A stretch of 27,089 nt of DNA from an uncultured Candidatus Peribacteria bacterium (GCA_964358735.1 CAYHPV010000002.1:1-27089); one strand, 5' to 3'. Positions 5,827-7,268 are shown, numbered from the stretch's first letter. The notes: generated by a model not told the origin, from the sequence alone. Numbers and translations: made by a program.

Positions 5827-5878
5827 AAAGAAAAACATGCACATCACATAACTAGCTATATCCACGTCAATGCAATTT

Positions 5879-6832
5879 TCATGATAATTGATTAGTAAAA
5901 GGTGTGCCCCGCTTCCATACGGCAAAAACAACATGTACCATCTTGTGCATCACGGCACAAAGAGCGACACGATAAGGTTTCCCCTCGGATCGCTTTTTTG
6001 TGAAAAACACTCTAAAAATATTGTCGTGTAAAACGGCGACAGAAGACGCATTGAAAAAACGAGTGCGCAAAATCTTGCTGCCACGCTTGGTAATATACCC
6101 TTTTCCGTGAATGCTTGTTCCACTCTCATACACACGGGAATCAAGGCCGACATAAGCGGTTAATCGTTTTGCGTCAGGGAAACGGGCAATATCTCCAATT
6201 TCCGCGACGCAGGTCGCAGCGGTTTGAGGTCCAACGCCAGGGATAGATTGCAGCAACTTCTGCAAATCAGGATTAAATTTTCTGATTTTTCTATCCAGTA
6301 AAAGAATTTTTTCATCTAGAAACTCCACAAGATCCTTGTTCACTTCCGAAATGTCATTTGCAAGATAACTTTCACGCAGACAAACTTCCTCCTGTCTCAA
6401 TTTGGCTTGTACTCTCAGCATTGAAAACTTTGATCTCTGACGCACCAAAGTTTTAAGAGTAAGGATGTTGGAAGTATCACGAAAAGGATGCCCGGCGCCG
6501 TTAATCAAACAAATACGAATCAGCTTGGCATCATGAATATCTGTTTTGACACTGCGAACAGTCGATTTGCTTTGCCCCCGTGTAATTAAAGGATTAATTA
6601 CGTTGACGGTATAACCGGCCTTTGTAGCCAGAAAAGAAAGTTGAAGGTGATATGAGCCTGTTGATTCCAGACCAATGAGAGTCTTCTCGTTTGAAAACTT
6701 GTGAGCACTCAAATAATGAAGGAATTGAGAGATTCCAAGGCCGGAATTGTCAAATTTCACGATACCTCCATGCTCGTCAAAACAGGCATGAAAATCACGT
6801 TTGGAAACATCTATACCGATGTATTTGTTCAT
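5879..6832 (-). CDS. IS110 DEDD recombinase/transposase, apparently intact
   Basis: IGIDVSK, GLESTGSY, KTDIHDA (D-E-D-D); SIPGVG; GLDSRVYESG (catalytic Ser); KRGSKILR; AVMHKM. Confidence 0.95.
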   Translation of the reverse strand: MNKYIGIDVSKRDFHACFDEHGGIVKFDNSGLGISQFLHYLSAHKFSNEKTLIGLESTGSYHLQLSFLATKAGYTVNVINPLITRGQSKSTVRSVKTDIHDAKLIRICLINGAGHPFRDTSNILTLKTLVRQRSKFSMLRVQAKLRQEEVCLRESYLANDISEVNKDLVEFLDEKILLLDRKIRKFNPDLQKLLQSIPGVGPQTAATCVAEIGDIARFPDAKRLTAYVGLDSRVYESGTSIHGKGYITKRGSKILRTRFFNASSVAVLHDNIFRVFFTKKRSEGKPYRVALCAVMHKMVHVVFAVWKRGTPFTNQLS

Positions 6833-6914
6833 AATCTTGATTTTTAGGTTGTATTGGACATAAAATCTAAGAGAAAGAAAAGAAGAAAAGAAAGAGAAAG
6901 GCGGTAGCTGCGAA

Positions 6915-7088
6915 GACCCCTTGAAATGTCAAAAAGCAGGTTCGTGTATGATGCGGGGCTTGAGTCCCCAACTAGCTTATTCGCTTCCATAAGACATTTC
7001 AGGAGCCCACATGTTATGCGACGGGACGTTAACTCCCAACACGGCGCTTCGTGGCTACTCACCGAAAAGATAGTACCATCTAAGGTAC
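6915..7088 (-). ncRNA. IS110 bridge RNA (~175 nt)
   Basis: 5' hairpin GUACC-UUAGAU-GGUAC; target loop LTG 7046-7038, hairpin 7037-7023, RTG 7020-7014; donor loop LDG 6978-6970, hairpin 6969-6955, RDG 6947-6941; closed by a GAAAUGUC/GACAUUUC stem. Ends are approximate. Confidence 0.85.
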
Positions 7089-7268
7089 ACAGGCATTATA
7101 CGAACAGCGACTATGCGGTTCAGCTGCGCCCAAAGCTCAGCTTCACCCAAGTTTGACCACGGCGAAGCACTTCGTGCTATATTATACCGTGTCCAAACTT
7201 CGCCAACGCGCAAACGTTAGCTAAAATAAAAAAACTTTTTTGTTATCTCCACCACCTTAAGATCAAAT

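What the first reader, a model, noticed from the sequence alone, without database searches (positions are those of the whole stretch)
5850..7104. Fully decodable IS110 bridge-RNA system (ends, core, junction promoter, four guides)
Seen (minus strand): predicted donor junction TAGCTAG-TT-CGTAT. LDG AAGCUAGUU matches 8/9; RDG ACACGAA matches 6/7. The two loops are symmetric: GAAN + 9-nt guide + a 15-nt hairpin (GGGA-7-UCCC / GGGG-7-CCCC) + right guide. The circle junction creates TTGACG-17-TATAAT. All DEDD residues and the catalytic Ser are present. Established: this is the IS621 bridge-recombinase architecture. Inference: an intact, probably active, reprogrammable recombinase with a TT core from a CPR host.
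Basis: partly seen in the sequence, partly recalled or inferred. Interest (0 to 1): 0.7.

Follow-up and report, generated by a model that had tools for sequence, protein, structure and literature searches.

The report
Bridge-RNA IS110 element in attC-like repeat
This is an intact 1.25-kb jumping gene of the RNA-guided IS110 ("bridge recombinase") type in an ultra-small-genome groundwater bacterium; its own guide RNA matches its two ends and the edge of the cassette-type repeat it sits in, so it is a well-supported new member of a known kind, not a new mechanism.

Summary
On the minus strand, 7104-5850 is a 1,253-bp IS110 element bounded by a duplicated TT. It has an intact 317-aa recombinase with D8, E56, D98, D101 and S237-G238, and a structured RNA of about 190 nt in its left end with two IS621-type loops.

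A covariance model of the two loops finds the same RNA upstream of 80-odd related recombinase genes. 17 of 19 base pairs show compensatory changes. The four guides co-vary with the element ends and flanks across the family.

In this copy the matches are: LDG 8/9; RDG 7/7 with an IS621-like 2-nt bulge (6/7 contiguous); RTG (CGCAUAA) 6/7 plus one G.T; LTG only 5/9. TTGAC at a fixed distance in the right end and TATAAT in the left end make a promoter only when the ends are joined.

New here: the target is the G|TT edge of a ~125-nt structured, attC-like repeat. In related CPR genomes this repeat forms co-oriented cassette arrays, and no canonical integron integrase was found. Copies at least 99.4% identical sit in different flanks in relatives, so the family moves. 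Activity of this single copy is untested.

The same scan has already reported IS110 elements aimed at attC-like sites on other DNA. Verdict: new member of a known kind.

The parts
5850..7104 (-). Whole IS110-family element including the TT core at both junctions (element proper 1,253 bp)
   Evidence: TT at 7104-7103 and 5851-5850. Similarity to relatives L003, L004, L014 and L022 ends at 7105/7106 and at 5850 (L014).
5879..6832 (-). Recombinase gene, 317 aa, with D8, E56, D98, D101 (RuvC-like DEDD) and S237-G238 (Tnp domain)
   Evidence: Pfam PF01548 and PF02371. Aligns to IS621 8wt6 (E 5e-29) and ISCro4 9t56 (E 1.4e-28) with the catalytic residues opposite each other. Full length compared with relatives.
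7095..7100 (-). -10 box TATAAT, 2 nt inside the left end
   Evidence: Read directly. TATAAT, TATATT or TATACT is conserved at this place in the family.
5865..5870 (-). -35 box TTGACG in the right end; it lies 17 nt from the -10 only when the ends are joined
   Evidence: Read directly. TTGAC lies 14 nt before the core TT in about 60 related elements. No promoter-like site on the minus strand of the integrated copy.
6900..7088 (-). Predicted bridge RNA (about 190 nt): 5' stem-loop 7088-7073, outer helix 7063-7054 with 6908-6900, target loop, donor loop
   Evidence: Fold, alignments A1/A4, covariance model R1. The RNA ends are inferred, not measured.
7007..7054 (-). Target-binding loop: stem CCAC/GUGG, linker GAAG, LTG CGCCGUGUU (7046-7038), hairpin (7037-7023), linker GU, RTG CGCAUAA (7020-7014), handshake CA (7013-7012)
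   Evidence: Parsed by the IS621 layout (PMC11208158). Stem and hairpin show compensatory changes. RTG and LTG co-vary with flanks in the family.
6933..6987 (-). Donor-binding loop: stem GGAAGC/GCUUUU, linker, LDG AAGCUAGUU (6978-6970), hairpin (6969-6955), RDG AUA[CA]CGAA (6949-6941), handshake CC (6940-6939)
   Evidence: LDG positions 2-9 equal the last 8 nt of the right end, here and in relatives where both vary. RDG CGAA becomes UGAA where the left end changes from TTCG to TTCA.
5850..5858 (-). Left donor half-site plus core, TAGCTAG-TT
   Evidence: 8/9 identical to the LDG.
7098..7104 (-). Core plus right donor half-site, TT-CGTAT
   Evidence: Complementary to the RDG: 7/7 with a 2-nt bulge, 6/7 contiguous.
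7103..7111 (-). Left target half-site plus core, GTCGCTG-TT
   Evidence: 5/9 identical to the LTG. Relatives reach 8/9 to 9/9 (L003, L061, L072).
5845..5851 (-). Core plus right target half-site, TT-ATGTG
   Evidence: Complementary to the RTG at 6/7, with the seventh position a G.T wobble.
7105..7222 (-). attC-like structured repeat that was hit. It opens with AGCTAAC, has two inner hairpins, and closes with ...CGCTG just before the TT
   Evidence: nhmmer model of the flanks, E 4.7e-16. Arrays of the same repeat occur in relatives. Stem covariation and cassette-type end complementarity.

Best explanation
This is a complete IS110-group insertion sequence that works like IS621.

Proposed mechanism:
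- When the element is excised as a circle, its right and left ends abut at one TT. That joins a -35 box (right end) to a -10 box (left end).
- This promoter drives an RNA of about 190 nt from the left end.
- The RNA has two internal loops. The donor loop pairs with both strands of the RE-TT-LE junction (LDG with the bottom strand, RDG with the top strand). The target loop pairs with both strands of the target (LTG and RTG).
- A tetramer of the DEDD/Ser recombinase then exchanges strands at the TT.

Its natural target is the ...(G/C)TG|TT|R... edge of a ~125-nt attC-like hairpin repeat that separates gene cassettes in CPR genomes.

Shown here: anatomy, catalytic residues, RNA structure covariation, guide/site covariation in the family, and target identity.

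Inferred: the transcript, the circle, catalysis, and activity of this particular copy.
For: Protein: Pfam DEDD_Tnp_IS110 plus Transposase_20. IS621 and ISCro4 structures are the best PDB matches, with all five catalytic residues aligned.

RNA: model R1 hits once in the window, at 7066-6928 (145.9 bits), and upstream of the gene in 80-odd loci. 97.1% of cells are paired against 82.0% in shuffles; 17 of 19 pairs have double changes; covariation is 0.457 against at most 0.117 for slid controls.

Donor guides: LDG variants AGCUAGUU, AGUUAGUU, AAGUAGUU, AGGUAGUU, AAUUAGUU, ACCUAGUU and ACUUAGUU each go with the same 8-mer at the right end. RDG CGAA/UGAA follows left end TTCG/TTCA.

Target guides: in the 45%-identity subgroup, RTG A-runs match the T-run flanks 6-7/7. 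L056 has LTG CGUGCGUU next to flank CGTGCGTT.

Shuffle tests, own pairs against shuffled pairs: LTG 5.82 vs 5.39 (9/20000); RTG 4.96 vs 4.02 (0/20000); LDG 7.18 vs 6.21 (0/20000); RDG about 5.5 vs 5.0 (at most 1/20000).

Promoter: halves are conserved at fixed spacing. No minus-strand promoter match in the integrated copy.

Mobility of the family: copies at least 99.4% identical lie in different flanks.
Against: - The copy is single in its own 1.17-Mb genome, and the closest relatives are only about 77% identical in DNA. So there is no sign of recent movement of this copy.
- Its LTG matches its own left flank at only 5/9. IS621 natural sites mostly carry 0-2 mismatches (PMC11208160).
- Within the close subfamily alone, the target-guide signal is weak: LTG 1480/20000 and RTG 400/20000 shuffles reach the observed value.
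- The target-loop handshake CA is complementary to the cognate target TG. In IS621 that arrangement blocked strand exchange (PMC11208158).
- No RNA data were available for this copy, and its circle junction was never looked at in raw reads.
Confidence: 0.82

Rival explanations
1. The copy looks intact but is immobile: a stranded or domesticated element in a non-cognate site that no longer moves.
For: Single copy in the genome. LTG to own flank is 5/9. Only one other good attC-like candidate site exists in the genome (C36, LT 8/9 but RT 4/7). No near-identical copy was found elsewhere.
Against: The frame is open at full length with all catalytic residues. Donor guides still fit both ends (8/9 and 7/7). 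Both promoter halves are at consensus. Sister elements of the same family show recent movement.
Confidence: 0.13
2. Target choice rests mainly on the folded attC-like structure, or on protein contacts with GTT and the stem. The RNA target guides contribute only the last few bases.
For: The mean LTG match in the family is only 5.8/9. Matches are concentrated in ...TGTT, while the L' arm in front varies freely. A preprint reports a sequence-plus-structure logic for ISPpu10 (10.64898/2026.03.19.712850; abstract only read).
Against: The RTG co-varies with the right flank (0/20000). It switches completely to A-runs in the subgroup that lands in T-runs. L056, L072 and L061 show 8-9/9 LTG matches with distinct sequences.
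Confidence: 0.15
3. The gene is not a transposase but a TasR-like, IS110-derived RNA-guided DNA binder, and the hairpin repeats are its guide array (TIGR-Tas).
For: CPR genomes carry such systems (earlier scan note e1-876552). There is a weak PDB match to TasH/HNH entries (E 8.7e-4).
Against: All DEDD/Ser residues are kept and IS621 is by far the best match (5e-29). The repeats are 125 nt long and 0.2-1.7 kb apart, with ORFs between them. The element has defined ends with a duplicated TT and moves as a unit.
Confidence: 0.01

Closest known systems
IS621 (E. coli) and ISCro4 bridge recombinases with bridge RNA (Durrant et al. 2024, PMC11208160; Hiraizumi et al. 2024, PMC11208158; PDB 8wt6, 9t56)
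   Same: - RuvC-like DEDD domain, coiled coil and Tnp domain with the Ser-Gly loop.
- RNA encoded in the left end, upstream of the gene.
- Loop layout: stem, linker with G, 9-nt left guide, hairpin, 2-nt linker starting with G, right guide, 2-nt handshake, stem.
- RDG pairs discontiguously, 9 nt to 7 nt.
- The core is included in all four guides.
- Sigma-70-type promoter split across the RE-LE junction.
   Different: - Distant in sequence (E about 1e-28 over the whole length).
- Core TT instead of CT. G at position 7 is also shared by donor and target, so the identical stretch is GTT.
- Both hairpins are 15 nt long.
- An outer helix (GGUGAG/CUCACC, with compensatory changes) appears to enclose both loops.
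- The target-loop handshake CA is complementary to the cognate target.
- The target is an attC-like cassette repeat, not a REP element.
- The host is a CPR bacterium.
IS1111-attC group (ISKpn4, ISPst6, ISPa25; Post & Hall 2009; Tetu & Holmes 2008; seekRNA work PMC11187229)
   Same: DEDD/Ser transposase of the wider IS110 family. Orientation-specific insertion at one end of attC-type cassette recombination sites, guided by an element-encoded RNA.
   Different: In those elements the non-coding region and seekRNA lie downstream of the gene, and they have subterminal inverted repeats. Here the RNA is upstream, with the two-loop IS621 design. The hosts there are Proteobacteria with canonical integrons. 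The exact insertion points could not be compared because the 2008 paper is not held.
IS110-type, attC-aimed elements reported earlier by this scan on other DNA (e1-3043919 in a CPR genome; e1-5199823, e1-5051568, e1-4400844 in other lineages)
   Same: Same design and same kind of target. e1-3043919 shares 18 of 180 short words with this protein.
   Different: Those are AI notes not checked here. The CPR case was said to have lost its left tip, whereas this copy has both ends.

Membership tests
IS110-group bridge-RNA recombinase elements (IS621 type) | Recombinase with an N-terminal RuvC-like DEDD domain and a C-terminal Tnp domain carrying the catalytic Ser | tested here: met
   PF01548 and PF02371. 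D8, E56, D98, D101 and S237-G238 lie opposite IS621 D11, E60, D102, D105 and S241-G242.
IS110-group bridge-RNA recombinase elements (IS621 type) | Structured non-coding RNA in the left end with two internal loops | tested here: met
   Model R1: 83 hits, all upstream of the gene. 17 of 19 pairs have compensatory changes.
IS110-group bridge-RNA recombinase elements (IS621 type) | Donor loop: LDG identical to the top strand of RE+core; RDG complementary to core+LE | tested here: met
   This copy: 8/9, and 7/7 with a bulge (6/7 contiguous). Family covariation: 0/20000 and at most 1/20000 shuffles.
IS110-group bridge-RNA recombinase elements (IS621 type) | Target loop: LTG identical to the left flank+core; RTG complementary to core+right flank | tested here: met
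   This copy: RTG 6/7 plus one G.T, LTG only 5/9. Family: LTG 9/20000 and RTG 0/20000 shuffles. The signal is weak within the close subfamily alone.
IS110-group bridge-RNA recombinase elements (IS621 type) | Short core present at both junctions and in all four guides | tested here: met
   TT at 7104-7103 and 5851-5850. LTG and LDG end in UU; RTG and RDG end in AA.
IS110-group bridge-RNA recombinase elements (IS621 type) | Promoter reconstituted at the RE-LE junction | tested here: met
   By sequence only: TTGACG-17-TATAAT on joining. Halves are conserved at fixed spacing. No minus-strand promoter match in the integrated form. Transcription was not measured.
IS110-group bridge-RNA recombinase elements (IS621 type) | Circular intermediate and RNA-dependent recombination | not testable with these tools
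   The runs that hold the sequence are kept only as contigs. Indirect evidence: relatives at least 99.4% identical lie in different flanks.
Integron attC site (for the target repeat) | Imperfect hairpin with AAC / GTT outer boxes and an inner stem of variable sequence | tested here: met
   YYYR-AAC ... GTT-RRRY ends. Inner stem: own arms -16.3 against crossed arms -7.7 kcal/mol, 0/5000.
Integron attC site (for the target repeat) | Cassette logic: the bases after one site complement the opening box of the next site | tested here: met
   3.45 of 4 variable positions against 1.71 in shuffles (0/20000). The two ends of the same repeat match at only 1.42 of 4. In the window the unit 4499-5853 has long inverted ends.
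Integron attC site (for the target repeat) | Co-oriented arrays with one or a few ORFs between sites | tested here: met
   Met in relatives (L002, L003, L004, L039 and others). The window's own genome has only three detectable repeats, on three contigs.
Integron attC site (for the target repeat) | An integron integrase (IntI with its extra domain) in the genome | tested here: not met
   TIGR02249 best score is 130 bits against a cut-off of 265 in G000, G035 and G041-G043, with profile positions about 180-235 unmatched. Control genomes score alike. The window's 272-aa tyrosine recombinase has only Phage_integrase and SAM_4. Hence 'attC-like', not attC.
TIGR-Tas (TasR) systems | Tandem array of short guide hairpins next to a catalytically altered IS110-like protein | tested here: not met
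   Catalytic residues are intact. The repeats are long, spaced by ORFs, and lie outside a mobile unit with defined ends.

The most novel reading that the evidence does not exclude
A whole lineage of IS621-type bridge recombinases in CPR bacteria is specialised on cassette arrays that have attC-like repeats but no canonical integron integrase. The IS core TT coincides exactly with the G|TT edge of the cassette unit. Identical IS copies keep the same right flank next to different left repeats. These elements might therefore do more than parasitise the arrays: they, or recombination at the G|TT sites they regenerate at both junctions, might move or shuffle cassettes.
Probability: 0.08. Interest if true: 0.75.

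Novelty: new member of a known kind. Interest (0 to 1): 0.35.

Why it matters
Bridge recombinases are being developed as programmable DNA insertion tools, and natural orthologues with other cores and compact proteins are useful starting material.

This one offers:
- a natural TT (effectively GTT) core;
- a 317-aa enzyme;
- a fully assignable guide set, backed by about 80 relatives whose guides and sites vary together. That set is a ready-made table of natural 'reprogramming' events.

Biologically, it shows that the upstream-RNA IS110 branch, and not only the IS1111-attC group, homes to cassette recombination sites. It also shows that CPR genomes carry integron-like cassette arrays for which no typical integrase was found.

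None of this changes the known mechanism.

Tried and rejected
- Rfam (evalue mode) on the window region and on eight related loci gave no family for the RNA or the target repeat, only chance hits such as Ysr283, RMST_1 and RsaJ.
- Sequencing runs: 20 holders were listed, all groundwater DNA kept as contigs, and no RNA holder was listed. Laying four runs showed no circle junction and no empty site. Contigs cannot show rare forms, so this says nothing either way.
- Empty site by synteny: same-genus genomes G004 and G006 have the flanking membrane-protein gene (88-89% aa) but a different neighbourhood and no IS, so no empty-site comparison was possible.
- Exact or near-exact target or donor 14-mers elsewhere in the own genome: none at 1 mismatch or fewer.
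- Integron integrase search: nothing over the cut-off in five genomes.
- Which of the two ends of the repeat is the cassette crossover could not be settled. ORF orientation and a short hairpin plus G|TT at 4445-4506 favour the ORF strand, which puts the IS at the inverse-core end. Identical IS plus right flank next to different left repeats favours the other end.
- A MAFFT alignment of all 330-nt upstream regions was too gappy to use.
- The first right-end search pattern was one base short and was redone.
- Tetu & Holmes 2008 is not held in the library.

Full report
**What is there**

On the minus strand, 7104-5850 is a compact mobile element. It contains one long ORF, 6832-5879, of 317 aa. 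That ORF carries the two Pfam domains of IS110-family transposases: DEDD_Tnp_IS110 at 2.6e-20 and Transposase_20 at 1.4e-24.

Its best matches among solved structures are the bridge recombinases IS621 (8wt6, E 5.2e-29, residues 4-313) and ISCro4 (9t56, E 1.4e-28). Counting along that alignment, with the residue numbers given in PMC11208158, puts D8, E56, D98 and D101 opposite IS621 D11, E60, D102 and D105. It puts S237-G238 opposite S241-G242. The protein is full length compared with relatives of 315-321 aa.

**Ends**

TT stands at 7104-7103 and again at 5851-5850. Similarity to related elements in other genomes stops at 7105/7106 on the left. On the right it stops at 5850 (L014), or at 5841 where the flank itself is similar.

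The right end reads TTGACG, then 13 nt, then TT. The left end reads TT-CG-TATAAT. Joining the ends on one TT gives TTGACG, a 17-nt spacer, then TATAAT.

About 60 related elements keep TTGAC exactly 14 nt before the core. They also keep TATAAT, TATATT or TATACT 2 nt after it. A consensus scan of the integrated copy finds no promoter-like site on the minus strand between 5700 and 7300. The hexamer that the flank supplies at the -35 position (CTGAAC) matches only 3 of 6. A promoter that exists only in the joined form is therefore well supported by sequence. Transcription itself was not measured.

**The RNA**

I parsed the left end using the IS621 layout: stem, linker, 9-nt left guide, hairpin, 2-nt linker, right guide, 2-nt handshake, linker, stem (PMC11208158).

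- Target loop: CCAC, GAAG, LTG CGCCGUGUU, a 15-nt hairpin, GU, RTG CGCAUAA, CA, U, GUGG.
- Donor loop: GGAAGC, GAAU, LDG AAGCUAGUU, a 15-nt hairpin, GC-AUC, RDG AUA[CA]CGAA, CC, U, GCUUUU.
- Other helices: a 5' stem-loop (7088-7073); a long basal helix under the donor loop; and an outer helix (GGUGAG.../...CUCACC-type) that seems to close the whole RNA. The outer helix shows compensatory changes in relatives.

Rfam has no family for this RNA.

I collected 6 related loci from species genomes, more from relatives of the host, and 80 from metagenomes. I built a covariance model of the two loops from 26 sequences and searched all loci with it.

The model gave 83 hits. Every hit lies just upstream of the recombinase gene, and the window has exactly one. 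On the resulting alignment:
- 97.1% of cells are paired, against 82.0% in shuffles.
- 17 of 19 pairs carry changes on both sides.
- The covariation score is 0.457, against 0.187 for shuffles and at most 0.117 for slid controls.
- The alignment is fitted to the model, which flatters these numbers. The MAFFT/RNAalifold run on 26 sequences already showed the same compensatory pairs.

**The guides**

I read guide columns from the model alignment. I located element ends independently of the guides: the left end by the TTC-N-TATA motif, and the right end by TTGAC plus a fixed distance.

Donor side:
- The LDG changes together with the right end. AGCUAGUU, AGUUAGUU, AAGUAGUU, AGGUAGUU, AAUUAGUU, ACCUAGUU and ACUUAGUU each sit with the identical 8-mer at the end.
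- The RDG has CGAA where the left end is TTCG and UGAA where it is TTCA.

Target side:
- The 45%-identity subgroup inserts after a GC hairpin plus a T-run. Its RTGs are A-runs that match 6-7/7 (for example AUAAAAA with TTTTTAT, and AGAAAAA with TTTTTCT).
- L056 has LTG CGUGCGUU beside flank CGTGCGTT.
- L072 has a 9/9 LTG match.

Pairing each guide with its own site against shuffled sites gives:

| Guide | Own sites | Shuffled sites | Shuffles reaching observed |
|---|---|---|---|
| LTG | 5.82 | 5.39 | 9/20000 |
| RTG | 4.96 | 4.02 | 0/20000 |
| LDG | 7.18 | 6.21 | 0/20000 |
| RDG | about 5.5 | about 5.0 | at most 1/20000 |

Within the close subfamily alone the target guides are nearly constant. 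There the signal is weak: 1480/20000 for LTG and 400/20000 for RTG.

For the window copy the matches are LDG 8/9, RDG 7/7 with the bulge (6/7 contiguous), RTG 6/7 with the odd position a G.T, and LTG 5/9.

Two departures from IS621 are worth noting.
- G at position 7 is shared by donor and target, and the first handshake base is C in both loops. The identical stretch is therefore effectively GTT.
- The target-loop handshake CA is complementary to the cognate target TG. In IS621 that arrangement trapped the complex before strand exchange (PMC11208158).

**The target**

The left flanks of the related insertions are alike. They belong to a repeat of about 125 nt with this layout:
- an opening box of four variable bases plus AAC;
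- a stem arm of about 11 nt;
- GATGTT and a hairpin;
- ATATGGGTG and a second hairpin;
- GAACC and the matching stem arm;
- then (T)G|TT plus four variable bases and GATGT.

The stem arms differ between copies but match within a copy. Own-arm duplexes average -16.3 kcal/mol against -7.7 for crossed arms (0/5000 shuffles).

A profile of the repeat finds it in arrays. All copies are on one strand, the same strand as the IS, and lie 0.2-1.7 kb apart in L002, L003, L004, L039, L046 and others. The ORFs between them are on the opposite strand.

The 7-mer that follows one repeat is the reverse complement of the 7-mer that opens the next repeat. 3.45 of 4 variable positions agree, against 1.71 in shuffles (0/20000). 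The two ends of a single repeat agree at only 1.42 of 4. That is the logic of integron gene cassettes.

In the window, the unit 4499-5853 (a DsrE-like gene and a SHOCT-domain gene) is bounded by long inverted repeats of 27 nt (89%) and 30 nt (93%). The IS sits exactly at its right edge.

No integron integrase above the curated cut-off was found in the host or in four related genomes. The 272-aa tyrosine recombinase at 2814-3632 has only the general domains. I therefore call the target attC-like rather than attC.

The host genome has just three detectable repeats. One is unoccupied, on contig C36, and its left half-site matches the LTG 8/9.

Which end of the repeat is the cassette crossover could not be decided. 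This determines whether the IS sits at the core site or at the inverse-core site.

**Activity**

This copy is single in its genome. Its nearest relatives are about 77% identical in DNA. The public runs that hold it are groundwater DNA kept as contigs, which cannot show circles.

In relatives, copies at least 99.4% identical lie between different flanks. In L032/L033, L081/L082 and L074/L079 both flanks differ. In several other pairs one flank differs. So the family is, or recently was, mobile.

**Comparison and verdict**

The element meets every sequence-level criterion of the IS621-type bridge systems. The criteria that need experiments (RNA, circle, recombination) are open.

The habit of landing at one end of attC sites is known from the IS1111-attC group, whose guide RNA lies downstream of the gene (PMC11187229). 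Here the upstream-RNA branch does it, in a CPR host.

Earlier notes of this same scan report similar IS110-type, attC-aimed elements on other DNA, including one in a CPR genome. Those notes are unchecked, but they agree with what I found independently.

This is a clean, fully assignable new member of a known kind.

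Noticed in passing
window 7105-7222 (-); arrays in L002, L003, L004, L039, L046, L071, L083: A ~125-nt attC-like structured repeat with a covarying inner stem and cassette-type complementarity between successive repeats. It has no Rfam family, and no canonical integron integrase was found in five genomes.
   Followed up: yes
window 4499-4569 and 5775-5853: Long inverted repeats (27 nt at 89% and 30 nt at 93%) bound a two-gene unit (DsrE-like 4656-4979, SHOCT-domain 4989-5702). 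A short hairpin followed by G|TT lies at 4445-4506 just before it.
   Followed up: partly
window 2814-3632 (-): A 272-aa tyrosine recombinase (Phage_integrase + SAM_4) lies divergent from the cassette-like genes. It scores 130 bits on the integron-integrase model (cut-off 265), with the IntI-specific middle part unmatched.
   Followed up: partly
own genome contig C36:21-163 (-) and C103:3290-3389 (-): Two further copies of the repeat. The C36 copy is unoccupied, ends ...TGCCGTG|TT (8/9 to the LTG) with right side TTCAACG (4/7 to the RTG), and lies 20 nt from a contig end.
   Followed up: partly
window 5716-5788 (+): A perfect 17-bp hairpin (5723-5739 / 5757-5773) just after the SHOCT gene. Look-alike contigs in four groundwater runs have 10-30 times the depth of the neighbouring sequence, so similar sequence occurs in much more abundant organisms. 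Unexplained.
   Followed up: no
L091-L106 (about 45% identity subgroup): These relatives insert after a GC-rich hairpin plus T-run (terminator-like). Their RTGs are A-runs matching the flank 6-7/7, a natural retargeting of the same RNA design.
   Followed up: partly
L086:1170-1194; L022:1327-2051: In L086 a 23-nt copy of the right end abuts the left end, giving an RE-TT-LE junction in linear DNA with no further IS sequence upstream. L022 carries two left-end/bridge-RNA copies next to each other.
   Followed up: partly
L004:1472-1631, L004:2160-2320, L088:1070-1185, L002:807-969, L002:6564-6701: These are repeats whose two stem arms do not pair with each other (duplex -0.1 to -7.3 kcal/mol against a median of -18). 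They may be chimeras from exchange inside the repeat.
   Followed up: no
L046/L047, L073/L074, L086/L087, L033/L045: The same right flank, and in the first three pairs the identical IS, lies next to different left repeats. It looks as if IS plus the downstream cassette can change partners at the left G|TT.
   Followed up: partly
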